Assembly: GCA_964016885.1 (NCBI GenBank) | Contig: OZ024743.1 | Coordinates: 118,234,001 to 118,298,000, forward strand | DNA from: Eledone cirrhosa | Taxonomy: Eukaryota | Length of the DNA: 64,000 bases | Direction: 5' to 3' | Shown here: positions 19,767-58,875 of the stretch, piece after piece | How the letters are laid out: each line of letters starts with the position of its first letter | Position numbering within the stretch: position 1 is the first letter of the stretch | Translations under genes and position numbers: made by a program | The notes under the pieces: generated by a model | What the model saw: only the letters and a program-made list of their open reading frames with translations | Databases searched by the model: none | What the model was told of the DNA's origin: nothing

Positions 19767-19827
19767 ATAAAATAAAGTACCAGTAATGTGCTGAGTAAAT
19801 GCTGGCCTTGTGCCAAAAGTAGAAACA

Positions 19828-19871
<44 letters not shown>

Positions 19872-20283
19872 AGGGCGGTAGATTGGCAGTATCGGTAGAG
19901 TGTCTGACGCCATGCTTTGACGCGTAGAGTTACGGCCCTTGCCATTCTGAGTTCAAATCCCGCCGAGGTTAAATTTGCCTTTCATCCTTACGGAGTCGAT
20001 AAAATAAAGTACCAGTAATGCACTGGGTTATTTGCTGCCCTTGTGCCTAACGTAGAAACAATTATTATTATTAATATTAGGGCGGTGAATTGGCAGTATC
20101 GGTAGAGGGTCGGACGCCATGCTTTGACGCATAGAGTTACGGCCCTTGCCATTCTGAGTTCAAATCCCGCCGAGGTTAACTTTGCCTTTCATCCTTACGG
20201 GGTCGATAAAATAAAGTACCAGTAATGCACTGGGTAATTGCTGGCCTTGTGCCAATAGTAGAAACAATTATTATTATTATTAT
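19767..20283 (+). mobile_element. Tandem SINE array: 3' fragment (19767-19827) plus two full copies (19872-20060, 20080-20266), each followed by (ATT)n
   Basis: A/B boxes, conserved core and gccttgtgcc..agaaaca(att)n tails; short subfamily lacking the gtcgatttaatcgac segment. Confidence 0.92.
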
Positions 20284-21722
20284 CATTTTTGTTTTCTTTC
20301 ACTATTATTTCTGAGATATATGCCGAATGTCTTCTTGACACCTAGGGCAAATAAATTCACAGTAAGCCAGTTAATACAGCACATTGATTATAATAAAAAA
20401 AAAAACAGTATACATATATACACATGTGCATATGCATATGTAAATACAAGGAGGGATATCAATCTTACACAGATAGTGCTCTTCTCAATACGTGTGCAGT
20501 ACCAGTCAAAACAACTTTTTGCACCTCGTGCAGAGAGGGTAAACCAGGAATCATTCGCAAATATTGTTCTGTTCCTTTCTTGATCATTCCCAGTCCTTCC
20601 ACAATCACTGGTATTGTAACGGCCTTGAGGTGCCACATTTTCTCAATTTCAATAAGCAGATCTTTATATTTTCGTAGCTTGTCAAATTCTTTTGCTGCGA
20701 TATTGTGATCACATGGGATGCTCATATCTATCAACAAACAGACCTTGTTATGTTGATCTTTTACAATGATGCCAGGTCTATTTGCTTTTGTGGTCCCGTC
20801 AGTATGTATAGGAAAGTCCCAGAAAATTGTTACTTTTTCTCCTTCAGTTACAGCCTCAGGGTGATGGTTGTACCACTTGTCTTCAGCTTTGATTTTGTAA
20901 TGCCGACATATTACCCAGTGTAGATATTGGCCAACTCTGTCATGTCTATATTTGTGTCCTACTGGAGCTAAAACTTTACATCCAGAGAATAAGTGATCCA
21001 CTATTTCAACCTCAGCATTGCAGAATCGGCACTTTGGGTTTATTCCGTTTCTCATCACATAAGCCTGGTAATTACGAGTCAATAAGCTTTGATCTTGAGC
21101 AGCTAAGATGAAGCCTTCACTTTCCGCCTTTAGTTCTGAACTACGTAGCCACTGATGGGTGTGCTTTTGGTCAACATCATCTTGTTTGCTACGGCCCACA
21201 TATTTGCCATGCAGAGGTGACTGCTCCCAATTTGATGCTAATTGTCCCTGCCCTTTTGCTTTTGCCAGTGAGATGATGTGCTTAGCAGCATCAGTTGCAA
21301 CAGTTTCTTTAGTCTGTCCAGCCTGGGTATCAAGCATGAGATCAGCAGCATATTTTTTGCTCTCCTTCAAGATAGAATGAAGCTTCTTACTTCTTTCATG
21401 CTTTTCAACAAGTTTCAGCATACAGTCGTTAGTTGTTTCAAGGTATTTGGCCAGTCCAATGATGGTGGTCTTGTAAGCAAGTTCAAATTGGATCAGGCCA
21501 CGGCCTCCCTGAGTTCTAGGAAGGTAAAGACGATCCATATCTGCTTTTGGGTGGTGCATCCTATTACAGGTCAGTAGCTTACGAACTTTGGTGTCGATTC
21601 TTTTGACTTCACTCATATTCCAGTTCAACACACCGAAGCTATAAGTCACAACTGGGACTGCCAAGGAATTTATGACTAGCACCTTGTTACGAGCGTTTAG
21701 TTCTGTTCTCAGAACTGCACGT
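20284..21722 (-). mobile_element. 5'-truncated R4/Dong-like non-LTR retrotransposon (ORF 20465-21682)
   Basis: 405-aa ORF with RT C-terminus (LYLPRTQGGRGL), CRFC..H..SGC zinc knuckle, RHD and RLE motif (RPG..D..LIDM..KLRKY); both ends abut (ATT)n. Confidence 0.9.
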
Positions 21723-21735
21723 TTTTATTATTATT

Positions 21736-22519
21736 CAGTGCTACCGGGGAGCGTTGCCGGTTCGAGATAAGCTCTACAGGCGCGGAAGTGCCGTCAGCCG
21801 AGCCTGTCCGTGATGCGCGCAGAGCGATGAAACCGTTGTGCACGCACTCGTTCAGTGCTCTAGCATTACTGACTTGTGGAGCTATGTCGAACAGTTGCTG
21901 TTGCGTGTATGACTGATCCGGTTATCGACTGAGTCTATTGTGCAGATGGTCTCGCCGACTTCCTTCGAGGAGGAAGGGCAGGCGGTTTTCATCTCCCTAG
22001 TGGCCATGGCGAAAGAGATTGTGTGGTGGACAATTGAAAGGTTTAAAGACAGACACTTTCCTCTTCGGCGAGTCCCTAATTAACTTTTTCAAGTTTCACT
22101 TGAAGAGGAAAATCAGGGTGGAGAGGCAAGTGCCGCCTTCTAGTAAGTTTGTTGAAAGGTGGGTGAATGTAACGAGAATGGTCCGAGTGAACGGGACCGG
22201 TCTGAATATACGCCTGTAGTTTGAGAAATGGAAAAATGGAGAGAGGGCGCTTGCCCTGGGGGTCAGGGTGGCCGTGGTCTTTTGTGTGGGTTTCGCCACA
22301 TGTAACCCTCGGAAGTTTCCCCCCTATTGGGGAATTTTTCATTGTTTCAATTTTCATTTTTATTGTTTATATATATATATATGTTTCTATGTCTTTTTCT
22401 TTTTCTTTTCTTTACACGAAAATCTTTACACGAACAAAACCCACATCGTACCGCCCTGACCCGTCCTGTGCCGTCTGTAATGTTTTTCTTGATGTCAACC
22501 CTTGTGGCCAATAAAGAAA

Positions 22520-22521
<2 letters not shown>
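21736..22521 (+). mobile_element. 5'-truncated Tx1/L1-like LINE fragment with 3' UTR
   Basis: Homologous to 27863-28588; ends ccttgtggccaataaagaaatc then (ATT)n; (ATT)n also at the 5' side. Confidence 0.88.
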
Positions 22522-22554
<33 letters not shown>

Positions 22555-22769
22555 GAATGCTATGGTTGACGGAGGCTCGGCTCTGTAAGGTATTGTAAAT
22601 TTTGACCGCTATAACAATTGTAAATTGTTTAAAACTTTAAGCGACCTGTAGACAAAAACACCCTCCTCCTCGTGAGAAGGGTCTTTCTGCCCGTTATTTG
22701 GCCCTTCGGGGTTAACTAACTGCTTATTGGGGTTTTGTGCCCAATATTTATTTTAAACAAAAAAACAAC

Positions 22770-24918
22770 ATGGCTACGAAAAAGAATTTTCATAGGTCAC
22801 TCCCACTCATTCCATCTTCTTCTTCCTCAACCGTCACTATAGCAGAGAGAAGATTGTCTCTCTCTCCCTTCTTTAAATGTGTCTCTCTCCCGCCCTTCTC
22901 TTTCGCAAGCGACGACAGAAAAGAAAAATCTCGTGCAAAGCGTGCAAGATTTCTCCACGACGACGACGACAACGACGAAACAGGTGTGCGGGAAATACGA
23001 AAACCCATTTCATTCGTCTGACGTCAGGAATAATAACAGTAGCAGCCGTAATAACAACAGCAACAGTGACAATGAAAACAACAGTAGCAGCGGCAACAGA
23101 ATCAGCAGCAGCATAAATAACAACAGCATTAGCAGCAACAACAACAGCAGCAGCAGCAGCAGCAACAACAACAACAACCACAGCAACAGCGGCGCCGGCA
23201 GTAGTCGTAGTACCTGCAGCAACAACAAAAGTAACAGCAGCTCTGACGACAACAACAACAACGACAGCAGCAAAGAAAACAATCTCGTTTGCAGGTATCG
23301 CAAAGAACCTGGAAACCATCCTCATAACAAATGAGGAATTAGAGGAAGCGAAGAAGATGGTGACAAATCTGGACACCGAGCAATCTGCAAGGCAGCCGAA
23401 AAATTTTTCGAAACCCAACAGCGCTGTACGGTCACGTACCGTAGAGTAAGTACAAAATCCCGTAGGGTTGAAAGAGCCATAGAGGCTCAAATACAAAAAG
23501 CCTTGGGGTCTGTGTGGCAGCGGAATACGCACATCACCCGAGGCTAGAAATATGCCACCGTAGACGTACTTTTTGCCACAGCCCAGGAGGCAAAGGATCA
23601 ATCCTTAGTGACCCTAAGGAGCAAGGAAAAGGTGTTGGTGCCCTCCTACTGCGGGCAAAAAATTGTGAGGGTCAAAGTGACCCACCCCCCCGGGGGGATG
23701 TCCCCTTCTTGGCGGGCCGCGTCTGTCCTCGTCGGAATCGCGGACAAAACAACTGTACTGAAAGTACAGAAAAAAGTAAGAGAAGATTGGGTCGGCACCT
23801 CCATTGAGATGTTAATCCAAACCAACCAGGAGTGCATCGAAGCTATCCCGGATGTGATAGACTTCGATAACGGCACTCAATTGCCCATAAGTGTTGAGGG
23901 AAAATGCCCGAAATGCTTTCGCTGTGGATCGAAGACTCACCTCAGGGCCTTCTGCAACGAGAAGACCCGAGAAAGGAGAAAACCCCCCTCCTTCCGAAAC
24001 CCGCTCCACGGCTACCAGCAACAGGAAAAGCGGCAACCAGGACCGATAGGTTCGTGGCGCCTATACCCACGCCACGGAAATCAAAAACAGCAGCAGCAGT
24101 GGAAGTATTAACAACAACAACAGCAATACCAAATGCAGCTGCAACAGAGACTCCAGTACAAACATCACCAACAACAACAAGTGAAAGAGTGGAGCTGGTA
24201 CCCCTCCCCGACCTCACATAATCAGACATGGAGTGTGAGGTGGGAGAGGGATGGCAAAAGGTCGTAAGAAGGCAGAAACGCAGAAGCAGCGCATCGTCGC
24301 CTTCGAAAAGGGAGGAAAGAAATGAAAAAAGGGTAAAGGCTACTGCAAGGGAGACTCACAGCAGCAACACCACCAACACCATCACCACCCACACTAGCAC
24401 CACGATCACCACCGGCGACAACCCCACCGCCAACAACAACAACACCTTCAACACCACCACCACAAGCACCAACAAAACACACACACCCAGCAACAACGAC
24501 AACAAAATAGCAGAACCACACCCCACCCCCAGAAAAACAAATGCTCAGCAATAAATACACACAACAAGAAACTAATGACTTACATAATTGAACACACAGA
24601 CATTTCAGAACACGACTACATAATACCAGCACCAATCAAAACGCCAACTAACATAAGACTGCTAAAAATAGCACAGAAACAATACACAAACATTAAAACG
24701 AAATTCCCCAACGCAGTAGGTGATTTCAGAGACATAGGAGGGACTCTCAATCGAAGAGTATATTCGGACATACTCATAGAATAGCCGACGACCAGCCGAA
24801 GGGACGATTCAACGGTCCCTTCACCAGTCGATCAAGTGAAAAGGGATGGAAAAACCATCCCTCCTCTACGAAAAGTACGGTAAGTGGACTTTCCCATCTT
24901 TTCCACTCTATTTTAAAC
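22770..24918 (+). pseudogene. Tx1-like ORF1 (gag-like), disrupted
   Basis: ATG at 22770; AAC/AGC low-complexity stretch; CCHC knuckle CFRCGSKTHLRAFC near 23914-23955; stops and frameshifts; 3' end uncertain. Confidence 0.75.
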
Positions 24919-27900
24919 ATGACCTCACTCAGAATAGGCAGCATAAATGCGCGTGGCTTGGGGTCGTCATGGAAGCAGGGCCACCTGCTCAACGACCTCA
25001 GGTCACTAAACATAGATGTAGTGGCCATCAGCGAGACCAGAATCTCCGAAGCACGGGCCTTCGCACCGATCTTCGGCGGCTACGATGTGTACGCATCTCC
25101 CAGCCGTCCTGGATCGGTGGTGGTGGTGGGGGGGAGTTGCTGTGCTTTTTCGGAGAGGTTTGGATCTCACCATACGAGCCATCTTCCTGGACCCAGAGGG
25201 TAGTTGGTGGTGCTGGACGTGACCAGCGGAGACGGGCAAGCTTTCAGGCTAGTGGCCGTCTATGCGCCGACAGGAGCAGGGCGGCCTGATTTCTTCCGGC
25301 GTCTGGAGACCTTTCTTGGAACGTCCCGCTCTTTAGTGTTAGTGGGCGACTGGAACGGGATCTTAGATGCACGCTTGGACTGTGTGGGATTAGCTGATAG
25401 GGGTGGAGGGTGAAAGCGCCTCACCAACCTGCTCAGGCGTTTTGAACTGTCTGACAGGTACCGATTGGATTTCCCGAATGTGCCAATGTGAACTTGGACA
25501 AATCGCATAGGGTCATCCAGTTCATATCTAGATAGAGTATTTTGTAGGGAAATAGATAGGTCTAGCATAGGCTGTCCACAATTCAAGATAGTCAGCTACA
25601 CGGACCACAAATTTGTGATCTGTGTGCTTGACTTAGATAGGCTTCATAGACGAGGACCCGGCTACTGGAAGCTAAACGCGTCCTTACCAGCGCGCAAGGC
25701 CTACAGTGACCGGATTAGCGAACTAGTTAAGCGGGCGTTGACGGGGCCCATCGTCAACAACAAGTCGTGGTTTGCTCTGAAAAGAACGATTAGAACAGAA
25801 TCCATTAGGTTTAGTAATGCTTTAGCAATAGAGAAAAATAGAGCAGAGGGAGAACTAGTTAGAAAATTAGACGAGGCGCTTAGCAAAGGCATTGCGACCG
25901 ACGTGCTTGCGGCGAAATTGGCCCTTGACCAATTCTTCAATGCAAAGCACGAAGGCTGCGTTGTCAGAGCTAGGGTGCGTGCTCTCAGACACGAGGGTAC
26001 GAAAGCCGTTCAATGGGCCCGAGTGGCGGAGGCGCGTCGTAGCAACAAAGCCACGATCCGGTCTTTGGTGGACCACGACGGGCGCATGCTACTCGATCCC
26101 GGGAAAATGTGTGAAGATTTTCAGCGACACTTCACTCAGCTGTTCGGGGGAAGCGGTGGGCCGGGTCGAGGGATGGACTTTAGTGTCTACCTCGACGGAC
26201 TGCCGCGGCTCTCGGCCACTGAGGCAGAGTGTTGCGAAAAGCCGATAACAGCCGCTGAAGTAAGGGAGGCAATGACTGGCTGCACAAGGGGTAAATCGCC
26301 TGGTTTGGATGGTCTTCCCTATGAACTTTACGTACAGATGCCATACTTGTTCGGAGGCCTCTTGGCGGACGTCTACTGCAACTGGCAACAGAACGGGAGA
26401 ATTCCCAGTTCTGTGAGCTGAGGAGCGGTGTCACTGCTGAGAAAGGATCCGAACAAGTGGGATAACTTAGATAATTTCAGGCCCATAACTCTGCTGAAGA
26501 CACAGTTCAAGATTTTGGCCAAGGTGCTAGCAAACAGGTTGGCGATTGTCGTTGGTGGTCGGGTTGGAGAGGCGCAGTCATGCACCATTCCAGACAGATC
26601 CACCCACGACAACCTCCATCTCATTCGATATATCGTAGAGAGGGTAGCTAGGGAACCTGGCACGAGTGGGTTCTTTGATCAATTTGGATCATTCGTAAGC
26701 TTTGGATAGGGTCGACCATCGTTATCTAGCGGCAGTCTTGAGGGCGGCTTGCTTTGGGCCCGTCTTTAGAGGCTGGATCGCTGCCATGCACAGCGACATC
26801 TGCTTTGTGGTGTGAGTGAATGATCACCTTTCGGAACCGTTCAACATCATGCGCTCGGTCCGCCAATGATGTCCCCTCTCGTTCCTCTCGTACGTATGGA
26901 CTCTGGAGCCATTACTGCACAAACTGGAGAGGTTGAGGGGCGTCCCGCGCGAATTAGGATGCGGAAGATCCGTGTCAGCATATGCGGACGATGTCACCGT
27001 AGTGGTGTCGAACGCCAAACACATCAGGGCGATCGGCACTACACTAAGAGAATACGAAGCGGTGACAGGAGCAATGATCAACCAGGAAAAGTCAGTGGGC
27101 CTGCAGCTCGGCACCTGGAGAGGCAGGCCCATGCCGTCCAACAGCGTCGTCGGACGCTGGACGGACGGACCGGTTAAATTGCTAGGTCTCTGGTTCGGTC
27201 CGGACCTCCAGACGGACAAAAACTGGGACAAGGTGAAGAGCAGGGTGGCTTCTCTCACCCAGAAATGGGCGGAGAGGAAGCTATCCCTGAAAGGTCGAGC
27301 TGAGGTGGATAACGCGTACAACGCGTCTGTCATCTGCTACCGCCTGACCGTCGTACCTTGTCCTAAGCCCCGCCTGACTGCGCTGGAGCGTTTGCTCTTT
27401 CGCTTTTTGTGGAAGGGACGCGCTGCCGATGGTCAGGCGGTCCATCTGCTTTCAACACCCGCTACGTGGAGCGCTGGGAATGCCGTGGCTGATGATGCGC
27501 AGACACGCGCTCAGGCTACGACATCTCCACCTCTTCCTCGACAGTGATCAGGTGTGGTCGCCGTTTGCTAGACACGTATTTCCCCAGCTCGTTTCCTTGA
27601 CGGAGCTGCAGTCCTGGGTCAAGCGAAGATCGAGAGGGAGCGCCTGGAGACTGGAATGTCTTCAGGCGCTCACAGCCCTCGACCAATCGGGCAATGTGAT
27701 CGGTGGAATCTCCACCTCGGCGTTCTATAGGGGATTAGTGGAGGGGAAGAGCGACGACGTACTTGGGGAAACTCTAGGCGTCGACGAAAATCAACTAGCC
27801 AATCTCTTCGGAAGAACTTTCGAGCCGGGACCTATGGACAACTTCCAGAAATCTCTGGCCTGGCAGTGCTACCGAGGAGCCTTGCCAGTTCGGGATAAAC

Positions 27901-28346
27901 TCTACAGGCATGGAGGTGCCGTCAGCCGTGCATGTCTGAGATGCGCGCAGGGCGACGAAACCGTCATGCACGCACTCGTCCAGTGTCCGAAAATTGCTGA
28001 CTTGTGGGTTTATGTCGAACACCTGCTGTCGCGTGTAGGACTGATCCGGCTATCATCTGAGTCCATCGTGAGGATTGCCCCGCCCTCTTCCTTTGGCGGA
28101 CTGAGCGCAGTATTTATCTGTCTGGTGGCCATGGCGAAAGAGATAGTATGGTGGACACGTTTGAAAGGGCTGAAGACGAGCACTTACCTCTTCGGTGATG
28201 CCCTGATTAACTTTTTCAAATTTCATTTGAAAAGGAAAATCAGGGTAGAGAGGGAAGTGCTCTCTTCCAAGCATTTTGTTGAAAGATGGGTGAGAGAAGC
28301 AAGAATGGCCCGAGTGAATGGACCTACTCTGAGTACGTATCTGTAA
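24919..28346 (+). pseudogene. Tx1-like ORF2 (APE endonuclease, reverse transcriptase, C-terminal zinc motif), disrupted
   Basis: MTSLRIGSINARGL, SET, GDWN, DH (APE); KSPGLDGLP, FRPITLL, YADD (RT); CLRC..ETVMHALVQC; split over several frames. Confidence 0.92.
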
Positions 28347-28587
28347 ATTAAAGGTGGAAAACTGGGAGAGGGCACTTGCCTTGGTGGTCAGGGTTACTGT
28401 GGCCTTTTACTGGGCTTTCTCCACAAATGTCCCTCGGAAGTCTCCCCCCTATTAGGGAATTTTTCTTTGTTATTTTATTACATCCTCTGTTTTTTACACG
28501 CAGAAATGCACATTTGTACCGTCCTGTATTGTCCTGTACTGTCCTTAATGTCTACTTTATGTAAACCCTTGTGGTTAATAAAGAAAA

Positions 28588-28624
<37 letters not shown>

Positions 28625-31600
28625 GTTCTTTGACTCTATGTCATTGACGCTATTTAACTGGAAAGTTTGTTGAAATGAATATCAAGCCACTACATGCAGC
28701 CTCAAATATTCAGGACGTATCGCAGGGTTCTTGCTGTTCCCAGCAAGCATGCCTTTTGGAGTGTTCCAAAAAGCGGGGAGGGACCAATTTTCTTTAACCA
28801 TCCTTGGAAAATCTTTGAGATAGTACCTAGTGCGCCTATGACAATCGGGACCACTTTGACCTCATGGCTGTTCCAAATTCTTTTTACCTCCCACTTTAAG
28901 TCCTGGTATCGGTTAATTTTCTCCCTCTCCTTCTCTTGCACTCTCGTGTCGAATGGGCAGGCTACATCCACAATCAGGCACGATCAGTTTTCCCTTGTCC
29001 AAAACCACCAGGTCAGGTCTATTGTGTTCCAGTTTCTTGTCCGTCTGTATCCTAAAATCCCACAGCACCTTCACCTGATCGTTATCCATCACCCACTCTG
29101 GCTTATGCTCATACCACTTCTCAGAATGTGGTAAATTGTTTACTTTGCATAGGTGCCAGTGGATCACCCTGCTCATCACATCATGACTCCAGCCTTTATA
29201 GTGGGTCTGGGCTAGGTGTTTACACTCAGATACAATGTGAGCCACAGACTCCTCTCTCTCCACAGATCCTACACAGTGGGCTAGCTTCCGCCTTGTAAAT
29301 ATGGTGTTTCAGCCACTTCGTTTTGAGGGCCTGCTCTTACGCAGCCATTAGCATTCCTTCTGTAGCCTTTTTAAGGTCTCCTCTATTCAACCAGTTCCAT
29401 GTCTGTGGATCTCTAAATTCAGTTTTCTCAAAGAAGGTACTATGAAGGGATTTTTCATGAAGGTTGCTCTTTCTCCTCGTTGTTATTTCCTCCTTGGACA
29501 TCCCCTGGTCTATTGTCCTCTCCTTCAGTACAATTCTGTGCATTGGCTCCCTACTATCAGTCACGTTTTTGTGTAGGTTGTTTTTCTCCATCTAAACACA
29601 GTCACCTCTGCTGATAAGACCTCTTCCACCTTCAGATCTCCTTAAGTAGAGTCTATCGACATCACTCCTCTTGTGGAACATGTTGTAGATAGTCAATAGC
29701 TTCCTAGTATTCCTATCCTTTTCTTTTTGTTCAGCAACATTCCATCTCAGAATTCCCGCACTGTACCTAATAATAGACACATCTCGGGAATTTATTGCAC
29801 TTATGGCATTCCTACTGTTCAGATGTGACTTTAACACGCTCCTTACTCTCCGAATATATTCAGATCTTATCAATTCCTTCATTTTTTTGTTCTTGATGTC
29901 ATCAGCCTCCAGAACACCCGAATACTTGTATCCTTCTTCGGTATGAATTTCCTTTATCATCTCACCTGTTGGTACCTGGATTCCGTTGCCTCTGCTCAAT
30001 TTATCCCTCTTCATCACAAGGACTCCACACTTACTAATACCAAATTGCATACATATATCATTGCTGAAAATACGGACAGTGTCAACAAGCACATCCAACT
30101 CCTTCTCACTGTTCCCGAAGAGCTTAAGATCGTCCATGAAGAGGAGGTGATTGATGGTAAGCTCTCCTTTCCCAACTTGTATCCTGCTCTCACTTTTCGC
30201 AGTATAATGGTCAGGGCGATCAAAGCAAGGACAAACAACAGAGTGAACAAACTATCTCCCTGGAAGATACCTCTCTTGATCTTCACGCCTCCTAAGGATT
30301 CTCGGCCCGATGTTAACTCTGTTTTCCAGGACTTCATACTTTTGCTCAACAACTGTCTGATGTTATCTGCCAGCCTGAAGATCTCTAGGCTTTTGGTTAT
30401 CCAAGAATGAGGTACCATGTTGAATGCCTTTTTGTAGTCTATCCATCCCATGGCAAGACCAGTGTGTCTCCTCCTGCAATTCCTCATTACCATCTTATCA
30501 ATAAGTAACTGGTCCTTTGTACCACGGGACTTTTTTCGGCATCCTTTCTGTTCGTCCGGTAACAAGTTGTTTATTTCGAGGTGATGGTAGATTTCCTCAG
30601 ACACAATGCTTGTTAACAGTTTCCTCATTGCGGACAGACATGTGATAGGTCTATAGTTGGTAACATCATTACCCTTGGTTCGGTCTTTTATTACCAGAAC
30701 TGTGGTACCTTTAGTCAATCACTCTGGTACCTCACCTGACATCAAGCAGTCATTGAACATGGTTATCAGTTTCGGGTGGAGGGATGTTATATTTTTAATC
30801 CAAAACCCCTGCACACCATCTGGACCTGGTGATTTCTAGTTGGTTAGTTTTCTGGCCTGCCCCTTAAGAGTTTCAACTGTGATACTCAAATCAGTTTGTT
30901 GGTGTTCCTCTTCACTAATCTTCTTTTGTACTGTCTCAATGCACACTGCCTGATCATTATGTTCACATCCTGCTCCCTTATTCCTCTCCAGAATGTCTTA
31001 GTTTGTTCCGCCTCACGGATCAAGTCGTTGCCTCTTTCTTTCCCTTCAAGCTGTCCAAACAACATCTGGTTGTTGTCAAACATGCGGTTCTGTCTATACT
31101 GACTGACTCTGCTCTCGTATCACCTAATCGTTCACTCTTTGCTACAATGCGTTGTTTCAGTTCCTTTATGATAATATTTAGATTTTTCCTCCTAGTTTTG
31201 TACTTTATTTCCAGTCTATTTTTAGTTTTGTGGTGTCCCATTCAGTAGGGACACCAATGTCATTTCCCATTTCCCTGATTTGACAATTCAGTCGTTTCTT
31301 CCACCAAGGTTCTGATCTTTCTTGTTTGTTGTTTCCTCTCGCTTTTATGCCAAGTATTTTCCTCACCGCATTTGCTGTTGCTTTGAGGGTATGTTTGCAC
31401 TGGTGAAGGTTCCTCGCCTCAAAGTATGGGATGACTTTGTTTACATTAGCTGTTGTTTCTTTTAACTTTTTCCTGTCTACAAATCTTAGGTTCATAGGTT
31501 TCCCACTATCTTTGTTCATTTCATCTACCACTAAGTTTAGGATATCAACCAAATCTTGTTCTAGCCCGTCAGCATTCATTTCCTCAATGGCCGTATCTTT

Positions 31601-33157: not shown

Positions 33158-33172
33158 ATTATTATTATTATT

Positions 33173-33355
33173 GCGGTGGATTGGCAGTATCGGTAGAGGG
33201 TTGGACGCCATGCTTTCCAGCATAGCTACGTCCCTTTACGATCTGAGTTCAAATCCCGCCGAGGTTGACTTTGCCTTTCATCCTTACGGGGTCGATAAAA
33301 TAAAGTACCAGTAATACACTGGGTAATTGCTGGCCTTGTGCCTAAATTAGAAACA

Positions 33356-33397
<42 letters not shown>

Positions 33398-33409
33398 GTT
33401 ATTGTTATT
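33173..33409 (+). mobile_element. tRNA-derived SINE, short subfamily, with (ATT)n tail
   Basis: Head, core and tail as in other copies; lies between two Dong-like elements. Confidence 0.92.
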
Positions 33410-33483
33410 CCTTGAATCTCAGTCATTGATGTTGGTTAACTGGAAAGTCCGTTGGATTGAATATCAAGCCACTACCTGCAGCC

Positions 33484-36876: not shown

Positions 36877-37445
36877 TTCACCGTTATTCGAACTGTTTAT
36901 GTTCGATATTTAAACACTCTTATCGAGGATTGGCGAATGTATGTTTACATAGCCATCTGTGGATCCGCCATCCCACTTGGCCCTTGTGTGGCATTATCAC
37001 CACGCTGTATACGGACACACATAAACAAACAAACACACGGGCAGAAAGGGCCCCAAAAATGAATAAGCATAAGTTTCATTGTAATGTAGTATTCGAATGT
37101 CTGACTTAGTTTTTGTTTTTTAAGTTTTACTTTTTCCCCCCTCTTCTCTGTCCGTCCGCCTGCTTCTCTCTTCATTCTTATTTTCTTTACGTTTTGGGGG
37201 TTTCTTTTTTTGTTTTTGTTTTTCTCTGTTTTTCTCGTTTTTTACTGTTGTTGCTGTGCTGCTTTTGTTGTTTGTTTTTTCTTTTTTCTTTTGAGTCTAT
37301 CTATATATTTTGATGCCTTACACTTTGTTAGTAGTAGGAATTCTATAATGTGGAAGTGGTAGCCAGCAGAGACTGGCGGCGTTGGCGATACTGAGACAGT
37401 GGTGGTGGTGATGTCGATACCGAGGCAGTGGTGGCGGTGATGCGA

Positions 37446-39385: not shown

Positions 39386-39573
39386 TTATAACAATATATT
39401 TTGGGTCCGAATTTTTTTGGGGCTCAAGCCGGGTGCTTTACGTAGCATTTGTACTAAGAGTTGTTATTTCACAAATGATTTAAATATGTTAAAAATTCAA
39501 AACTTACGGGAGCGATTTCATGACCTCCGTCACCTCGTGCGTCTTCTTCCCTTATTATTATTATTATTATTAA

Positions 39574-39607
<34 letters not shown>

Positions 39608-42600
39608 GGCGACCTACGTAGAAAATCGTATTATCGTGAGCTCCGCAAAGGTTTGTTATTTTCAAATTGCCAGTTATGGAAAATGTTTGTTGTTAAGTGT
39701 TTATAAGTTCACATATATTGCTTTCTGAAAGGGACAATCAAAAAGATTGGGACCTTGAGCCCCAAATTTAAACTTTTATAATTATCAAACAAAAACTTTC
39801 TTTTAAAAAAAACATGGACACTTTACAGCCACACGAAGCTGACAGCCTTCCTCACAAACTAACACCTCACACCAACACCACAATTGTAAATTTCCCGCCA
39901 TTACCAATAACTGCAGGTGTTAAAGCCGCTACCCCCACCACCACCACAGCGACAACAGAAAAATAAAAAAAATTATTATCTCGTGACATCGAAATGGATT
40001 TACCCAGAATCGACTCTTCCACGCCGAACACCACTGACGCCACCAGCAGCAGCACCACCACCACCACCACAACTGAAATTAAAATTACAATAACAAAAAA
40101 AAACAATAACAACAACAGCAACAACAACAATGAAAATAACAACAACAACATTAACACCAGCGCAAAACAAAATGTGTCTTTTGCCAAAGCAGCAAAGATA
40201 AGCGAAACAATCGAGGTAAGCCAGGATGAATTAAATGAATCCAAGAGAATGGTAAAAAAAGATGGGTCAGCCTCCCCCCCCCCCCCCACCACCACCACCA
40301 CCACCTAATAAAATGGAGCATCGGCGCCTATGTATCGTGTCATATCGGGCGATAAACACAAAATCACGCCGAATGGAACGGGCATCCGAGTCCAAAATAC
40401 AAAAAGCTTTGGGACATGTGTGGGCGAAAAAAACCAACATCAGACGTGGGCAGAAATATGGAACCGTGGACGTGTTCTTTGGAACACCACAGGAAGCCAG
40501 AGAGCACTCCATGGTCCCATTAAGAAGTGACGACTTCACACACGTCCCAAGCTATTGTGGCCAGAGACTTGTGAAGATCAGGGTGACCCACGTTCCACCG
40601 GCCATCGAAATTCCCTGGATAATGGCTGCCGTCCTCGCCGGCATCGAGGCCAACACGAAAATATTTGAAGTAACAAAAGAAAAGCAGGAGAACTGGTCCG
40701 GATCTGGGATGGAGCTCCTGAGCCAAGCGGACCAAAAAAACATTGAGGAAATTCCAGAGGCGATAGACTTCAATGTCGTAACCACCTCACCGTATTCGTT
40801 GAGGGTAGAAAGTTGAGGTCACCTCTGTTACCCACCCTAGTAACTCAGCCATCAACACCACCAGCTGCAGAAATGGCAGCAACAACTGCAGCAACAAGAA
40901 CAGAAGCAACTGTAGCAGCAACAACCCCAGCAACAGTAGCAAAACTAACACCACCACCACCCACCGCGCCTGAATTAGCACCAGCGCCTCCACAATCCAC
41001 CGCGCCACAACCAAATCCAACGCCTGTGAAGGATTTTCCACTCTCCGACCTATCGCAACTGGAGACAGATTGTGACGACGAGGATTGGGAAACTGTATCA
41101 GGAAAAAAGAAAAAATGAAAAAGAACCCAAAAAAGAAACAATTCTCTTCCTTCCCCCTCCAAAAACAAAATGCAGGGTGAAACAAATAAACAAACAAACA
41201 AAAAAGTTAAGACAGCTATGCCACCATCCACACCAGCATCACCAACCCCGTTCACCACAAACACCAACACCATCACCATCATTAACCCCAACACCATCAT
41301 CACCAACACCACAAAGTCACCAAAAAGCGAAACAAACCCACAACAAACGCAAAAAAAACAAAACAACCAAAACGATACACTCTACACAGCATTAAATTGG
41401 CAGTATAGGTAGAGGGTTGGACACCATGCTTTGACGCATAGAGTTACGTCCCTTGTCATTCTGAGTTCAAATCCCGCCGAGGTTAACTTTGCCTTTCATC
41501 CTTACGGGGTCGATAAAATAATAAAGTACCAGTAATACACTGGCATAATTGCTGACCTTGTGCCAAAAGTAGAAACAATTAAATATGAACAACAAGGAAT
41601 TATTACACTACATCCAACACAACACCAGCATCACATAAAAATACTACACAACACCCCAAAAATTCACACCACCTCCACACATACAAATCACTCGCATCAC
41701 ACAGAAAACGTACACGACACTAAAGCAAAGGTTCCCCAAGGACGTCGGAGACTTCCGACAAACACTCTCCAGGAGGATTTATAAAGACATCCTTCCGGAG
41801 GAGGCCACAAGCAGTGAGAAGGATGGAAAAACAATCCTCCCCCTACGAGAAGTGAGGTAAGTGGTCTTTCCCATCTTTTTCCAATCCTTTTCAACATGAC
41901 CTCACTCAGAATAGGCAGCATAAATCCGCGTGGCCTTGGTTCGTCATGGAAGCAGGGCCACCTGCTCAACGACCTCAGGTCACTAAACATAGATGTAGTG
42001 GCCATCAGCGCGACCAGAATCTCCGAAACACGGGGCTTCGCACCGATCATCGGCGGCTACGATGTGTACGCATCTCCCAGCCGTCCTGGATCGGTGGGTG
42101 GATTTGCTGTGCTCTTTTGGAGAGTTTGGGTCTCGCCATACGGGCTATCTTGCTGGACCTAGAAGGTAAGTTGGTGGTGTTGGACGTGACCAGCGGAGAT
42201 GGGCAAGCTTTCAGGCTAGTGGCTGTCTATGCGCCGAAAGGAGCAGGGCGGCCTGATGTCTTCCGGCGTCTGGAGACCTTTCTTGGAACGTCCCGCTCTT
42301 TAGTATTACTTGACTGGAACGGGATCTTAGATGCACGCTGGGACTGTGTGCGATTAGCGGATAGGGGAGGAGGGTGTAAAAGCCTCGCAAACCTGCTCCG
42401 GCAATTTCAACTATCTGACAGGTACCGTCTGGATTTCCCGCATGTGCCAATGTGGACATGGACAAACCGCATCGGGTCATCCAGATCATATCTAAATAGA
42501 GTATTTTGTAGGGAAATAGATAGGTATAGTATAGTCTGTCCACATTTCAAAATAGTCGACTACACGGACCACAAATTCGTGATCTGTGAATTTGACTTAG

Positions 42601-45509
42601 ATAAGTTTCACAGACAGCGCGCAAGGCCTACAGAAACCAGATTAGTGAACTAGTTAAGCGGGCGTTGACGGGGACCATCGTCACAACAAATGGTGGTTTG
42701 CTCTGAAAAGAGCGATTAGAATAGAATCCATTAGGTTTAGTAAGGCTTTAGCAATAGAGAAAAATAGAGCAGTGGGAGAACTAATTAGAAAATTAGACGA
42801 GGCGCTTAGCAAAGGCATCGCGACCGACGTACTTGCGGCGAAATTGGCATTTGACCAATTCTTCAATGCAAAGAACGAAGGCTGCGTTGTCAGAGCTAGG
42901 GTGCGTGCTCTCAGACACGAGGGTACGAAAGCCGTTCAATGGGCCCGAGTGTCGGAGGCACGTCGTGTCAACAAAGCCACGGTCCGGTCTTTGGTGGACC
43001 ACGACGGGCGCATGCTACTCGATCCCAGGCAAATGTGTGAAGTTTTTTAGCGACACTTCACTCAGCTGTTCGGAGGCAGCGGCGCGCCGGATCGAGGGAT
43101 GGACTTTAGTGCCTACCTCGAAGGATTGCTGCGGCTCTCGCCCACGGAGGCGGAGTGTTGCGATAAGCCGATAACAGCTGCTGAAGTACGGGAGGCAATG
43201 ACTGGCTTCACGAGGGTAAATCGCTTGGTTTGGATGGTCTGCCCTATGAACTTTACGTACAGATTCCAGACTTGTTCCGACGCCTCTTGGCGGACGTCTA
43301 CTGCAACTGGCAACAGAACGGGAGAATTCCCAGCTCTGTGAGCCGGGGAGCGGTGGTGCTATTGAGAAAGGATCCGAACAAGGGGGATAACATAGATAAT
43401 TTCAGGGCCATGACTCTGCTAAAGACAGAGTTCAAGATTTTGGCCAAGGTGCTAGCAAAGAGTTTGGCGGTTATCGTTGGTGGTCTGGTGGGAGAGGCGC
43501 AGACATGCGCCATTCCCGACAGATCCATCTACGACAATCTCCACCTCATGCGATACATCGTAGAGAGGGTAGCTAGGGAACCTGGCACGGGTGGGTCCTT
43601 GATCAATTTAGATCAGTCGAAAGCTTCCAATAGGGTCGACCATCATTATCTGGCGGCAGTCCTGAAGGCGGCTAGCTTTGGGCCCGTCTTCAGTGGCTGG
43701 ATCGCTGCCATGCACAGCGACATCTGCTTTGTGGTGAGAGTGAACGATCACCTTTCGGAACCGTTCAACATCATGCACTCGGTCCGCCAAGGATGTCCCC
43801 TCTCGTCCCTCTTGTACGCATTGACTCTCGAGCCATTACTGCACAAACTGGAGACGTTGAGAGGGGTCGCACTTGAACTAGGATGCGGAAGATCCGTGTC
43901 AGCATATGCGGACGATGTCACCGTAGTGGTGTCGAACGCCAAGTACATCGAGGCGATCGGCACTACACTAAGAGAATACGAAGCGGTGACAGGAGCAATG
44001 ATCAACCAGGAAAAGTCGGTGGGCCTGCAACTCTTGTACCTGGAGAGGCAGATCCATGCCGTCCAACAGCGTCGTCAGGCGCTGGATGGATGGACAGGTT
44101 AAATTGCTAGGGGTCTGGTTCAGTCCGGACCTCCAGACGGACAAAATCTGGGACGAGGTGAGGATCAGGCTGGCTTCTCTCAGAGAGGAAGCTATCCCTG
44201 AAAGGTCGAGCGGAGGTGGTGAATGCGTACATCGCGTCCGTCATCTACCACCGCCTAAGTAACGTGCTTTGTCCTAAGCCTTGCCTGACTGCGCTGGAGC
44301 GTTTGCTCTTTCGCTTTTTATGGAAGGGACGCGCTCCGATCGTCAGGCCGTCCATCTGCTGTCAACACCCGCTACGTGGAGGGCTAGGCATGCCGTGGCT
44401 GATGATTCGCAGACACGCGCTCAGGCTACGACATCTCCACCTCTTCCTCGACGGTGATCAGGTGTGGTCGCCGTTTGCTAGATGCGTCTTCCCCAGCTCG
44501 TCTTCTTCGCGGAGCTGCAGTCCTGGGTGAAGCGAAGACCAAGAGGGAGCGCTTGGAGACTGGAATGTTTGAGGCGCTCACAGCCCTCAACCAATCGGGC
44601 AATGTGATCGGTGGAAACTCCACCTTGGCGTTCTATAGAGGATTAGTGGAGGGGAAGAGCGACGACGTACTTGGGGAAACTCTAGGCGTCGACGAAAATC
44701 AACTAGCCAATCTCTTCGGAAGAATTTTTGGGCCGGGGCCTATGGACAACTTCCATAAATCCTTGGCCTGGCAGTGCTACCGAGGAGCTTTGCCACTTCG
44801 GGATAAACTCTACAGGCGTAGAGGTGCCGTCACCCGGGCATGTCAGAGATGCGCGCAGGGAGACGAAACAGTCCTGCACGCACTCGTCCAGTGTCCGAGC
44901 ATTGCTGAGTTGTGTGTTTATGTCGAACACCTGCTGTCACGTGTAGGACGGATCCGGCTTTCATCGTGAGGATTGCCCCGCCCTCCTCATTTAGCCGGGA
45001 AGGGCAGGCAATTTTTATCTGCCTGCTGGCCATGGCGAAAGAGATAGTATGATGGACGCGTTTGAAAGGGCTGAAGACGAGCACTTACCTCTTCGATGAT
45101 GCCCTGATTAACTTTTTCAAATTTCCTTTAAACCGGAAAATGAGTGTAGAGAGAAAAGTGCTCTCTTCCCAGTATTTTGTTGAAAGATGGGTGAGAGAGG
45201 CAAGAATGGCCCGTGTGAATGAGCCTACTCTGAGTATGTGCCTGTAAATTGAAGGTGGAAAACTGGGAGAGGGCATTTGCCCTGGTGGTAAGGGTCACCG
45301 AGGCTTTTTTTTAATGGGCTTTCTCCACGATGGCCCTCGGAAGTCCCCCCGCTATTGGGGAATTTTTCATTGTTTCTTTTTTTGTTACTTCCTCTGTTTG
45401 TTTTTTTTTCACGCAGAAATTCCCATTTGTACCGTCCTGTATTGTCCTGTATTGTACTGTACTGTCCTTAATGTCTACTTTGTGAAAACCCTTGTGGTTA
45501 ATAAAGAAA
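39608..45509 (+). mobile_element. Decayed Tx1/L1-clade LINE (copy 2) with divergent 5' UTR/ORF1
   Basis: ORF1 remnants (KYGTVDVFF, PSYCGQ); ORF2 from 41896 (MTSLRIGSIN) with QGCPLS and YADD, ending 45247; 3' UTR and AATAAA. Confidence 0.9.
41396..41584 (+). mobile_element. SINE inserted within Tx1 copy 2
   Basis: Slightly 5'-truncated short-subfamily SINE; candidate TSD attaaat (41391-41397, 41578-41584). Confidence 0.9.
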
Positions 45510-48192
45510 GGTATAGTAATTTTTAACCGCTATAACAATTGTAAATTGTTTAAAACTTTAACAAAATTGTAGATAAAAACACCCTGCTCCTCCTGAGAAG
45601 GGTGTTTCTGCCCGTTATTTGGCCCTTCAGGGTTAAATAACTGCTTATTGGGGTTTTGTGCCCAATATTCATTTTAAACCAAAAAAAAAAACATGGCTAC
45701 AAAAAAGAATGTTCACAAGTCACTCCCACTCATTCCGTATTCTTCTTCCTCAATCGTCACTACATCAGAGAGAAGATTGTCTCTCTCCCTCCCCTCTAGA
45801 AATGTGGTGTCGCAGCAACAACAAAAGTAACAGCAACTCTGACGACAACAACAACAACATCAAGAAAGAAAAACCAATCTCGTTTGCAGGTATCGCAAAG
45901 AACATGGAAACCATCCTTATAACAAATGAGGAATTATAGGAAGCAAAGAAAATGGTGACAAAAACCGAACACCGAGCAATCTGCAAGGCAGCCGAAACAT
46001 TTTTCGAAACCCAACAGCACTGTACGGTCACGTACCGTACAGTAAGCACAAAATCACGTAGGGTTGAAAGAGCCACAGAGGTCTGTGTGGCAGCGGAAAA
46101 GGCATATCACCCGAGGCAAGAAATATGCCACCGTGGACGTGCTTTTTGCCACAACCCAGGAGGCAGAGGCTCAATCCTTAGTGACCCCAAGGAGCGAGGA
46201 AATGGTGTTGGTGCCCTCCTACTGCGGGCAAAAAATTGTGAGGGTCAAATTGTCCCACGTCCCCCCCCCCCCCCCGGGATGGTCCCTTTGTGGCTGGCTA
46301 CGTCTGTCCTCGTCGGAATCAAGGACAAAACAACGGTACTGCAAGTACAGAAAAAAGTACGAGAAGATTGGGTCGGCTTCTCCATTGAGATATTAATCCA
46401 AACCAACCAGGAGTGCTTCGAAGCTATCCCGGATGTGATAGACTTCGATAACGGCACTCAACTGCCCATAAGTGTTGAGGGCAAACTGCCGAAATGCTTT
46501 CGCTGTGGATCGAAGACTCACCTCAGGGCCTTCTGCAATGAGAAGACCCTGAGAAAGGAGAAAACCCCCCTTCTTCCGAAACCCGTTCCACTGCTACCAG
46601 CAACAGGACAGGCGGCAAGCAGGGAGGATAGATCCGTGGCACCCATACCCACGCCACGGAAATCAAAAACAGCAGTAGCAGTGGAAGTAGTAACAACAAC
46701 AACAGCAATACCAACTGCAGCTGCAGCAGAGACTCCACTGCAAACATCACCAACAACAAGTGAAAGAGTGGAATGGTACCCCTCCCCGACCTCACAGAAT
46801 CGGACATGGAGTGTGAGGTGGGAGAGGAATGGCAAATGGTCGCAAGAAGGCACACACGCAGAAGCAGCGCATCGTCGCCTTCGAAAAGGGAGGAAAGAAA
46901 TGAAAAAAGGGTAAAGGCTACTGCAAAAAGACTTACAGCAGCAACACCACCAACACCATCACCACGCACACTAGCACCACCATCGCCACCGCAAACAACA
47001 ACAACACCTTCAACACCACCACCATAAGCACCAACATCGCAAACACAACAAACAAAACACACACACCCAGCAACAACGACAGAAAATACCCCACCCCACC
47101 CCCAGAAAAACAAATGCACAGCAATAAATACACACAACAAGAAACTAATGACAGACATAATTGAACACACAGACATTTCACAAGACGACTACATAATACC
47201 AGCACCAATAAAAACACCAACGAACATAAGACTGGTAAGAATAGCACAGAAACAATACACAAACATTGAGTATATCCGAATATACTCTCCGGTTGAGTGT
47301 CCCCTAGGGGGGACACTCAACCGGAGAGTATATTCGGATATACTCACAGAAGAGCCGACGTCTAGCCGAAGGGACGATTCAACGGTCCCTTCACCAGACG
47401 ATCAAGTGAAAAGGGATGGAGAAACCATCCTTCCTCTACGAGAAGTAAGGTAAGTGGTCTTTCCCATCTTTTCCACTCCATTTCAACATGACCTCACTCA
47501 GAATAGGCAGCATAAATGCGCGTGGCTTGGGTCGTCATGGAAGCAGGGCCACCTGCTCAACGACCTCAGGTCACTAAACATAGATGTAGTGGCCATCAGC
47601 GAGACCAGAATCTCCGAAGCACGGGCCTTCGCACCGATCTTCGGTGGCTACGATGTGTACGCATCTCGCAGCCGTCCTGGATCGGGGGGGTGGGGGGGTT
47701 GCTGTGCTTTTTCGGAGATGTTTGGATCTGGCCATACGGGCTATCTTCCTGGACCCAGAAGGTAAGTTGGTGGTGCTGGACGTGACCAGCGGAGACGGGA
47801 AAGTTTTCAGGCTAGTGGCCGTCTATGCCCCGACATGAGCAGGGCGGCCTGATTTCTTCCGGCGTCTGGAGACCTTTCTAGGAACGCCTAGTGTTAATGG
47901 GCGACTGGAACGGGATCTTAGATGCACTCTGGGACTGTTTGGGATTAGCGGATAGGGGAGGAGGGTGCAAGAGCCTCACCAACCTGCTCAGGCGTTTTGA
48001 ACTGTCTGACCGGTACCGATTGGATTTCCCGAATGTGCCAATGTGGACTTGGACAAACCGTATCGGGTCATGCAGATCATATCTAGATAGAGTATTTTGT
48101 AGGGAAATAGATGCCCATTTGTACCGTCATGTATTGTTCTGTACTGTCCTTAATGTCTACTTTATGTAAACCCTTGTGGTTAATAAAAAAAG
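45508..48192 (+). mobile_element. Internally deleted Tx1-like element (copy 3): ORF1, partial APE and 3' UTR, no RT
   Basis: Colinear with copy 1 from 22587 to 25557, then jumps to its 3' UTR (28506); (ATT)n tail 48193-48225. Confidence 0.9.
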
Positions 48193-48509
48193 TATTATTA
48201 TTATTATTATTATTAATATTATTATGTGTTATTATTGTTATAAGGATCAAGTTGATGATGATGACGATGATAATGAGGATGATGATAGTGTCGCTATATC
48301 AGGAAAGAATCGAAGTGTTTGCCGCATAGTGAATTTAGAGAACATGAAAAGATTTGACAGCAATAACAGCAATAATTTCAAGTCAAACATTCATATATAT
48401 ATAAATATATACATACATAAATATGCTCGCACATACATATACACCCACACACCTACACCCACACACACACAGCCACACCCACACCCACACATATATCTAG
48501 AAGATGACT

Positions 48510-55771: not shown

Positions 55772-56842
<1,071 letters not shown>

Positions 56843-58093: not shown

Positions 58094-58181
58094 TCCTCTT
58101 GATAAGTTGGCAGACCTCGCAAGGACTCTATATCTTTGATATATTGTTTTTGTTTATGCCACGAAACTACGTAGTCGAGGA
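58094..58181 (+). ncRNA. Type I hammerhead ribozyme, U3-A8 core variant (copy 1)
   Basis: tcctc-TTGATAA-gttggca..tgccac-GAAA-CTACGTAG-TC-gagga; predicted cleavage after C58176. Confidence 0.75.
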
Positions 58182-58684: not shown

Positions 58685-58772
58685 TCCTCTTGATAAGTTG
58701 GCAGACCTCGCAAGGACTCTATATCTTTGATATATTGTTTTTGTTTATGCCACGAAACTACGTAGTCGAGGA
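58685..58772 (+). ncRNA. Type I hammerhead ribozyme, U3-A8 core variant (copy 2)
   Basis: Identical motif 591 bp downstream; predicted cleavage after C58767. Confidence 0.75.
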
Positions 58773-58841
58773 ATTTAGGAACAGTTTAGGTATGATACAT
58801 TTTATTACTAATTATATCTAAATGTTTCTTCTCTCTTCATA

Positions 58842-58875
<34 letters not shown>

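What the first reader, a model, noticed from the sequence alone, without database searches (positions are those of the whole stretch)
19767..48225. 28-kb chain of retroelements from three lineages all docked in (ATT)n/(TAA)n, with strict strand polarity
Seen: eleven consecutive insertions (SINE fragment, SINE, SINE, Dong fragment, Tx1 fragment, Tx1, Dong, SINE, Dong, Tx1, Tx1). They are separated by (ATT)n at 19828, 20061, 20267, 21725, 22522, 28589, 33158, 33356, 39552 and 48193; the only exception is 45508. All Tx1 and SINE copies are on +, all RLE elements on -. Even 5'-truncated ends abut ATT. Established: Dong elements of the R4 clade target TAA repeats, and some Tx1 families target other microsatellites. 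Inference: an APE-type Tx1 family and RLE-type Dong families converged on the same microsatellite via opposite strands. Each insertion regenerates the target, giving a self-extending safe-harbour array probably seeded by a SINE tail.
Basis: partly seen in the sequence, partly recalled or inferred. Interest (0 to 1): 0.8.

Follow-up and report, generated by a model that had tools for sequence, protein, structure and literature searches.

The report
Rival retrotransposons stacking in one microsatellite
In this probably octopod genome, two unrelated kinds of jumping gene sit by the thousand in ATT microsatellites facing opposite ways and pile up into mixed 20-30 kb chains such as this one, likely because each cuts a different strand and each insertion copies the landing site, and their front ends look alike, as if a promoter had been swapped between them.

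Summary
The chain is real. Eleven elements span 19767-48193, with (ATT)n at nine of the ten inner junctions and at the right end; a twelfth, a SINE, is nested at 41392. It is one example of a genome-wide system. Of 2,278 Tx1-like 5' termini, 2,122 sit directly behind (ATT)3. At tract edges, 167 of 168 Tx1-like ends read ATT and 260 of 264 restriction-like-endonuclease (RLE, Dong/R4-like) ends read TAA. Similar 21-32 kb arrays occur elsewhere, and members differ in age.

Corrections: the SINE prefers a short ATTA(T) motif, not the microsatellite (5 of 30 in ATT tracts). It has no ATT tail of its own, so seeding by a SINE tail is unsupported. 'Safe harbour' was not tested.

Two additions: the SINE shares a covarying 3' hairpin and its target signature with Tx1, so Tx1 likely mobilises it. 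The first ~230 nt of the RLE elements are collinear with Tx1 5' UTRs (14 of 15 pairs beat all genomic controls; profile searches were weaker).

Precedents exist: Dong/TAA, Kibi/Koshi, TRAS/SART, Keno/Utopia. Clade names rest on domain architecture, and no long read confirmed the array. Verdict: new variant of a known kind.

The parts
19767..19827 (+). SINE 3' fragment; its 5' end has no ATT
19828..19869 (+). (ATT)14
19870..20060 (+). full SINE (about 185 nt)
20061..20077 (+). (ATT)4, degenerate end
20078..20266 (+). full SINE, 98.9% to its nearest sampled copy
20267..20287 (+). (ATT)5, degenerate end; tail-to-tail junction
20288..21726 (-). 5'-truncated RLE element, lineage A; 419-codon frame with CCHC and a decayed RLE motif
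21727..21735 (+). (ATT)3 between two 5'-truncated ends (head-to-head)
21736..22521 (+). 5'-truncated Tx1-like fragment, subfamily d
22522..22554 (+). (ATT)11
22555..28588 (+). full-length Tx1-like element, 5' type a; ORF1 and APE-RT-CCHC ORF2 broken by stops and frameshifts; 5' UTR about 22555-22770; 3' hairpin about 28564-28576
28589..28624 (+). (ATT)12; tail-to-tail junction
28625..33157 (-). near full-length RLE element, type B, ORF broken; its 5' ~230 nt (about 32930-33157) are collinear with Tx1 5' UTRs
33158..33172 (+). (ATT)5, head-to-head junction
33173..33355 (+). full SINE
33356..33397 (+). (ATT)14; tail-to-tail junction
33398..39553 (-). full-length young RLE element, type C; open 1141-codon frame 33484-36909 (RT, CCHC, RLE motif); 99.6% to other copies; 324-bp unit x6 in the 5' UTR (37446-39389)
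39554..39607 (+). (ATT)6 + (ATT)11, head-to-head junction of two full-length 5' ends
39608..45508 (+). full-length Tx1-like element, 5' type b, ORFs broken; 5' UTR about 39608-39815
41392..41576 (+). SINE nested in Tx1 ORF1 at an ATTA site with a short duplication; other Tx1b copies show the empty site
45509..48193 (+). Tx1-like type a copy lacking its first ~33 nt, joined to the previous element without ATT; most of ORF2 deleted at about 48111
48194..48290 (+). (ATT)7 running into degenerate ATT and GAT repeats; likely remnant of the original microsatellite
   Evidence: origin inferred

Best explanation
The array is a stack of insertions of different ages by APE-type Tx1-like LINEs, RLE-type Dong/R4-like LINEs and a SINE, which sit in one ATT/TAA microsatellite with Tx1 and SINE reading ATT and RLE elements reading TAA, likely because the two enzymes make their first nick on opposite strands and each insertion duplicates the tract, leaving new landing sites. 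Shown: the target and polarity genome-wide, the fixed 3' junction before ATTA for Tx1 and SINE, target duplications of about 12-21 nt, clustering, and mixed ages. Inferred: by target-primed reverse transcription the Tx1 enzyme would nick the AAT strand and the RLE enzyme the ATT strand, each at or next to a T/A step; slippage would lengthen the duplicated tracts; long fresh tracts would then be hit again, so arrays grow by a rich-get-richer process from a pre-existing microsatellite. The SINE is likely moved by Tx1 proteins (about 75%). The RLE families likely took their 5' UTR from a Tx1 lineage by template switching and then passed it between RLE lineages (about 65% for common origin, about 50% for that direction).
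For: Genome-wide exact counts, reversed-pattern controls 0: RLE 3' motif 8,171; Tx1 3' motif 6,537; 2,122 of 2,278 Tx1b 5' termini directly behind (ATT)3; 272 tail-to-tail Tx1/RLE junctions for one motif pair and one tract-length window. Full-length 5' ends in fetched loci: Tx1a 17 of 17 and Tx1b 19 of 20 behind ATT; RLE 36 of 46 behind AAT, 5 behind AAG, 5 neither. Truncated 5' ends: RLE 41 of 64 AAT against 1 ATT; Tx1 16 of 40 ATT against 2 AAT; background 44 ATT and 42 AAT of 36,280 positions. Polarity at unmixed tracts of 5 or more units in L001-L250: RLE 260 of 264, Tx1 167 of 168, SINE 38 of 39. Clustering: 10 of 96 Tx1 3' ends have an RLE 3' motif within 250 bp, against a mean of 0.07 and a maximum of 2 in 1,000 circular shifts. 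Four arrays of 21-32 kb with 8-9 members in 200 kb picked for match density. Nearest-copy identity of window members runs from 88.9% to 99.6%. Domains. SINE-Tx1 hairpin. Shared 5' UTR.
Against: 19 of 40 truncated Tx1 ends and 18 of 64 truncated RLE ends scored 'other'; some are library or chaining artefacts or short decayed duplications, others are real off-tract or nested sites, and I did not re-sort them all. Clear target duplications for Tx1 could be read in only 8 of 62 copies, because pure tracts hide them, and none is convincing for RLE (5 weak of 85). Most loci were the first matches on C1 and neighbours in arrays are not independent. One array holds a repeated RLE-fragment plus Tx1 unit, so duplication also contributes. 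Profile tests of the 5' UTR homology were weak: the Tx1b profile hit 0 of 53 main-type RLE ends at E<1e-3; the pooled Tx1 profile hit 2 of 56 at E<0.01; the 30-copy B-type profile hit no Tx1 end at E<1e-3; no ORF1 protein relic was found in RLE UTRs (best E 0.08). No nicking data and no long reads.
Confidence: 0.85

Rival explanations
1. ATT is only the elements' 3' tail and the chain is a chance pile-up in a gene-poor region.
For: Six of the nine ATT-bearing inner junctions touch at least one 3' end. Repeats are dense in octopus genomes (PMC13282606, passages).
Against: Three head-to-head junctions carry ATT; 93% of Tx1b 5' termini sit on (ATT)3; truncated RLE 5' ends abut AAT in 41 of 64; where the site is not a pure tract the 3' flank copies the 5' flank.
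Confidence: 0.02
2. Arrays grow mainly by tandem duplication or unequal crossing-over at the ATT tracts, or are collapsed or expanded by the assembler.
For: An array on C1 has five Tx1a copies and a twice-repeated 813-bp RLE fragment plus Tx1a unit. The window has a 324-bp x6 repeat and a 100%-identical 591-bp duplication. No spanning read.
Against: In this window like elements are only 73-89% identical over their long alignments, have different 5' types and different truncation points, and differ in age.
Confidence: 0.07
3. The endonucleases are only loosely specific (ATTA or TAA cores); the apparent microsatellite targeting and clustering come from slippage expansion after insertion and from selection removing copies elsewhere.
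For: The SINE, likely using the Tx1 enzyme, mostly lands in non-repeat ATTA(T) sites. A few Tx1 copies sit in ACT tracts, a minisatellite or inside other elements.
Against: Full-length Tx1 and RLE copies, including young ones at 97-99% identity, lie in long tracts on both sides, whereas most SINE sites have not expanded. Selection would not create strand polarity.
Confidence: 0.2
4. The 5' likeness between Tx1 and RLE elements is convergence of AT-rich leaders, not shared descent.
For: Cross-clade identity is only 45-53% in a gapped alignment; profile E-values are weak or absent for most pairs; lengths and scoring were chosen after the likeness was seen.
Against: 12 of 15 pairs beat all 300 dinucleotide shuffles and 14 of 15 beat all 636 AT-matched genomic tiles. 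The RLE profile hit 16 Tx1a/f ends, none of 270 reversed ends, and among 600 tiles only a true RLE 5' end. The match runs from the terminus to an aligned ATGG(C/T)T at 205-225 nt.
Confidence: 0.3

Closest known systems
Dong (R4 clade), B. mori, A. gambiae, snail B. glabrata
   Same: Targets TAA microsatellites (PMC3812793, passages); single RT-CCHC-RLE frame. Dong-R4 is reported active in O. vulgaris (PMC13282606, passages).
   Different: B. mori Dong has a self-cleaving HDV-like ribozyme at its 5' end (PMC3774820, passages); none was found here (inconclusive). Here the 5' end resembles a Tx1 5' UTR and the UTR is 1.1-1.6 kb.
Kibi (TC)n, Koshi (TTC)n and crocodilian (TTCC)n/(TTTC)n Tx1 families
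   Same: APE-type Tx1-clade LINEs targeting microsatellites (PMC4494074, passages).
   Different: Target here is (ATT)n; I found no Tx1 with that target in the searches run, but figures, that paper's supplements and Repbase were not visible.
TRAS and SART in B. mori telomeric repeats
   Same: Two families insert into one short repeat in opposite orientation and form arrays (PMC10088271, passages).
   Different: Both are R1-clade APE elements at telomeres; here an APE and an RLE clade share a dispersed microsatellite at thousands of sites.
Keno (Tx1, APE) and Utopia (RLE) in U2 snRNA genes
   Same: APE and RLE elements evolved the same target in parallel (PMC4640811, passages).
   Different: Same site with identical 3' flank, so same polarity, in a low-copy gene; no mixed self-extending arrays described in the passages read.
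SINEU and Tx1-Mar in crocodilians
   Same: SINE likely mobilised in trans by Tx1 with shared target preference (PMC4494074, passages).
   Different: This SINE has a tRNA-like head (A- and B-box-like motifs, consensus recalled), at least 134,382 copies and a loose ATTA(T) target.
Shared LINE 5' ends: Nimb/I/RTE 70-bp head, ingi/L1Tc 77-bp, L1 5' UTR recruitment
   Same: 5' modules shared or swapped between LINE families, attributed to template switching (PMC4758252, section 10 read).
   Different: Those cases are among clades that, from my recall, are APE-type; here about 230 nt would be shared across the APE/RLE divide, and about 490 nt at 83-88% between RLE lineages only 40% alike in protein.

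Membership tests
Tx1 clade | Two ORFs; ORF2 with APE, RT and C-terminal zinc motif | tested here: met
   Intact copy L080: ORF1 690 aa with a CCHC knuckle, ORF2 1139 aa with Exo_endo_phos, RVT_1, zf-RVT; best solved relative is L1 ORF2p, E 1.5e-51.
Tx1 clade | RT phylogeny places it with Tx1, not other L1-group lineages | not testable with these tools
   No named Tx1 reference among 115 hits, cluster members or atlas rows. The label rests on architecture and on L1-Tx1 being reported in octopus.
Tx1 clade | Sequence-specific insertion into a repeat, with target duplication | tested here: met
   2,122 of 2,278; 15-20 nt duplications readable in 8 of 62 copies.
R4 clade / Dong | Single ORF with RT, CCHC and PD-(D/E)xK-type endonuclease motif | tested here: met
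   1141-codon frame; RVT_1; CCHC at 952; RPD...D...P.D at 1037; best solved relative is R2, E 9.4e-30.
R4 clade / Dong | No R2-type N-terminal C2H2 fingers | tested here: met
   No C2H2 pattern in the first 400 aa and no Pfam hit there; pattern test only, Myb not tested separately.
R4 clade / Dong | RT phylogeny with R4 and Dong rather than NeSL or HERO | not testable with these tools
   No named reference among the 120 listed hits, cluster members or atlas rows.
R4 clade / Dong | Flanked by (TAA)n in the sense orientation | tested here: met
   260 of 264 tract-edge ends.
R4 clade / Dong | 5' HDV-like ribozyme | tested here: inconclusive
   No Rfam ribozyme hit in 19000-49000; home-made descriptor 0 of 15 RLE ends, but it gave implausible hits in 16 of 30 Tx1 ends and had no positive control.
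Tx1-partnered SINE | 3' end shared with the partner LINE | tested here: met
   Common CTTGT loop, 4-pair stem and A-rich end over about 30 nt; 34 of 40 cells paired, 3 of 4 pairs changed on both sides, 0 of 500 shuffles reached the covariation score. Structure was derived from these same related sequences.
Tx1-partnered SINE | Same insertion signature as the LINE | tested here: met
   3' junction before ATTA in both; duplications mostly 12-21 nt; same polarity, 38 of 39. The SINE is far less tract-bound (5 of 30).
Tx1-partnered SINE | Mobilisation in trans by the LINE protein | not testable with these tools
   Needs a retrotransposition assay; other LINEs with a closer 3' end were not excluded.

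The most novel reading that the evidence does not exclude
Shared microsatellite arrays are exchange hubs: RLE-type R4/Dong elements captured the 5' promoter module of APE-type Tx1 neighbours across the deepest split in non-LTR retrotransposons, replacing the ancestral ribozyme, then spread it among their own lineages, while an (ATT)n-specific Tx1 enzyme also drives a SINE of over 130,000 copies.
Probability: 0.4. Interest if true: 0.78.

Novelty: new variant of a known kind. Interest (0 to 1): 0.58.

Why it matters
It gives a mechanism for the uneven clustering of active Dong-R4 and L1-Tx1 elements reported, without target analysis in the passages I read, in O. vulgaris (PMC13282606). It adds (ATT)n to the Tx1 target list and names a likely motor for an abundant octopod SINE. 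Intact, young copies of both enzymes exist, so strand choice on one symmetric target can be compared directly for an APE and an RLE nuclease. If the 5' module really crossed the APE/RLE divide, it shows how RLE elements outside rDNA gain their own promoter.

Tried and rejected
DNA-mode search of the own genome found nothing, not even the query itself; patterns were used instead. The first junction tally was discarded because a reference was empty and subfamily switches were scored as truncations; it was redone, and RLE full-length ends again by terminal motif because one reference lacked its first ~15 nt. The SINE hairpin pattern failed (2 hits) and was redone. Rfam gave only low-complexity hits below threshold. 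The HDV descriptor is unreliable. No ORF over about 110 codons recurs as an ORF1 in RLE 5' UTRs, and tblastn with Tx1 ORF1 found no relic. All 30 fetched of 50 B-type leaders matched RLE sequence; none led into a Tx1 ORF1. (TTC)n as a second Tx1 target was considered; those copies have ATT at the 3' side, so they look like edges of compound tracts. Public contigs could not span the array or show an empty site; one covers the left flank into the first SINE by 30 bases. No RNA holder listed. No relative in viral contigs; 55 metagenome relatives are distant and show no ATT/TAA run of 5 or more units, which says little. The contig look-up for homologous proteins was closed, so flanks of close relatives in other animals were not seen. 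Kojima and Fujiwara 2004 and Xiong and Eickbush 1993 were not held and are cited only through other papers. Supplements of PMC4494074 were unavailable and may list further Tx1 targets. No earlier scan findings.
Full report
Setting. The window is C4:118,234,001-118,298,000 of a 3.0-Gb assembly. It is probably an octopod: the only named close protein hit is from Argonauta hians, 74% identical over 41% of the query. Labels such as Tx1a/b/d/e/f and RLE A/B/C/D are mine.

Observation. Additions are a nested twelfth element, a left end without ATT, a deleted last Tx1 and a second RLE lineage. The plus-strand LINEs have ORF1 plus an APE-RT-zinc ORF2; an intact copy elsewhere scores best against L1 ORF2p. 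The minus-strand LINEs have one RT-CCHC-RLE frame, open for 1141 codons at 33484-36909, and score best against R2. No named Tx1, R4 or Dong reference was available, so the clade names are by architecture and target.

Target or tail. Genome-wide, 2,122 of 2,278 Tx1b 5' termini lie directly behind (ATT)3 in one phase. In fetched loci, full-length 5' ends were behind the tract in 17 of 17 Tx1a, 19 of 20 Tx1b and 36 of 46 RLE cases, with 5 more RLE ends behind AAG. Truncated ends gave 41 of 64 for RLE and 16 of 40 for Tx1, against about 0.12% background; 18 and 19 were scored 'other', a mix of artefacts, decayed sites and true exceptions. At tracts of five or more units, 260 of 264 RLE ends read AAT, 167 of 168 Tx1 ends and 38 of 39 SINE ends read ATT (mixed tracts left out). 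These loci are mostly the first matches on C1 and are not independent.

Arrays are general. Ten of 96 Tx1 3' ends have an RLE 3' motif within 250 bp (shift mean 0.07, maximum 2; 96 of the 100 listed Tx1 places fell in the span of the 100 listed RLE places). One motif pair alone gives 272 tail-to-tail junctions. Two regions picked for match density hold arrays of 22.7, 23.6, 21.2 and 32.4 kb with 8-9 members. Window members are 88.9-99.6% identical to their nearest sampled copies, so the chain grew over time. Twenty evenly spaced 10-kb stretches held 10 tracts of four or more units. Extrapolated, free targets far outnumber the LINE counts, so chains of 8-12 need preferential re-insertion (inference from a small sample).

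Mechanism. Tx1 and SINE 3' ends join before ATTA in every listed junction class (50 of 59 Tx1a/b and 53 of 76 SINE ends listed). Duplications of about 12-21 nt are readable where the site is not a pure tract. By standard target-primed reverse transcription (established knowledge) that implies a first nick on the AAT strand for Tx1 and on the ATT strand for RLE; the RLE position is ambiguous by a base or more. Duplication plus slippage would renew the target. None of this was assayed. Duplication of whole units also occurs in one other array.

The SINE. At least 134,382 exact tails exist. In the first 30, 5 have an ATT tract 5' and 21 have a duplication starting ATT, so it has no ATT tail of its own and a looser target. 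Its last 30 nt align with Tx1 3' ends around a CTTGT loop whose stem pairs differ between families yet stay paired. Tx1 is the likely motor; a closer partner LINE was not excluded.

Shared 5' module. The first ~230 nt of RLE elements align with all three Tx1 5' UTR types from the terminus to an ATGG(C/T)T that starts ORF1 in Tx1. Twelve of 15 pairs beat all 300 dinucleotide shuffles; 14 of 15 beat all 636 AT-matched tiles. Profile searches are weaker: E 5e-6 for Tx1b against the window's B-type end but 0 of 53 main-type ends; 16 Tx1a/f rows at E 0.001-0.55 with no reversed-control hit; 2 of 56 at E<0.01; none at E<1e-3. No ORF1 protein relic survives. Separately, RLE lineages only 40% alike in protein share about 490 nt of 5' UTR at 83-88%, which is direct evidence of a recent swap among RLE elements. 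Promoter function is inferred from position only.

Comparison. Dong targets TAA (PMC3812793, passages) and has a 5' ribozyme (PMC3774820, passages). Tx1 families target TC, TTC, TTCC and TTTC, and likely mobilise SINEU (PMC4494074, passages; supplements unavailable). TRAS and SART insert in opposite orientation in telomeric repeats (PMC10088271, passages). Keno and Utopia are an APE/RLE pair on one U2 site (PMC4640811, passages). Shared LINE 5' ends are discussed in PMC4758252 (passages and section 10). Octopus repeat papers list Dong-R4 and L1-Tx1 without target analysis in the passages read (PMC13282606, PMC8967140). PMC3747384 and PMC5035012 (passages) added nothing specific. Ten searches found no (ATT)n Tx1, no Tx1/Dong mixed array and no APE-RLE 5' UTR exchange; Repbase and subscription journals were not searchable, so prior description is possible.

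Verdict. A real, genome-wide and well-supported pattern built from known kinds of parts in a combination I did not find described. New variant of a known kind; interest 0.58.

Noticed in passing
window 56451-56840: A second, single 306-bp Tx1-like 3' fragment (subfamily e) with (ATT)19 before and (ATT)9 after, next to a TA run.
   Followed up: partly
window 37446-39389: Six 324-bp tandem copies (about 97% alike) in the RLE C 5' UTR; the unit holds the ATGG-containing end of the shared 5' module. Other type C copies are about 1.3 kb shorter.
   Followed up: partly
window 57556-58847: 591-bp tandem duplication at 100% identity; very recent or an assembly artefact.
   Followed up: no
window 54258-54866: Fragment of another RT-coding LINE (RVT_1, E 6e-21), not matching the array's families and not ATT-flanked.
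   Followed up: no
window 33138-33157: The 5' tip of RLE B is replaced by about 15 nt resembling the SINE head, in SINE orientation.
   Followed up: no
L179, L180, L192, L193, L197: Chains of 3-5 SINEs piled at an internal site about 730 nt into the B-type RLE 5' UTR, opposite to the host element.
   Followed up: partly
L114, L126, L149 (RLE D 5' UTR, about nt 860-930): A 46-nt SINE 3' end is fixed in the RLE D 5' UTR in the element's own orientation.
   Followed up: no
5' UTRs of RLE B/C/D and Tx1a/f, about nt 30-55: A conserved GTAAG(T), which looks like a splice-donor motif, lies in the best-kept block of the shared module.
   Followed up: no
L089, L094, L107, L109, L112: (TTC)n runs often lie between RLE 5' ends and the ATT tract; the element's own first bases contain a short GAAGAAG that may seed them.
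   Followed up: partly
L070, L137, L140: Short inverted SINE pairs next to ATT tracts account for some polarity exceptions.
   Followed up: no
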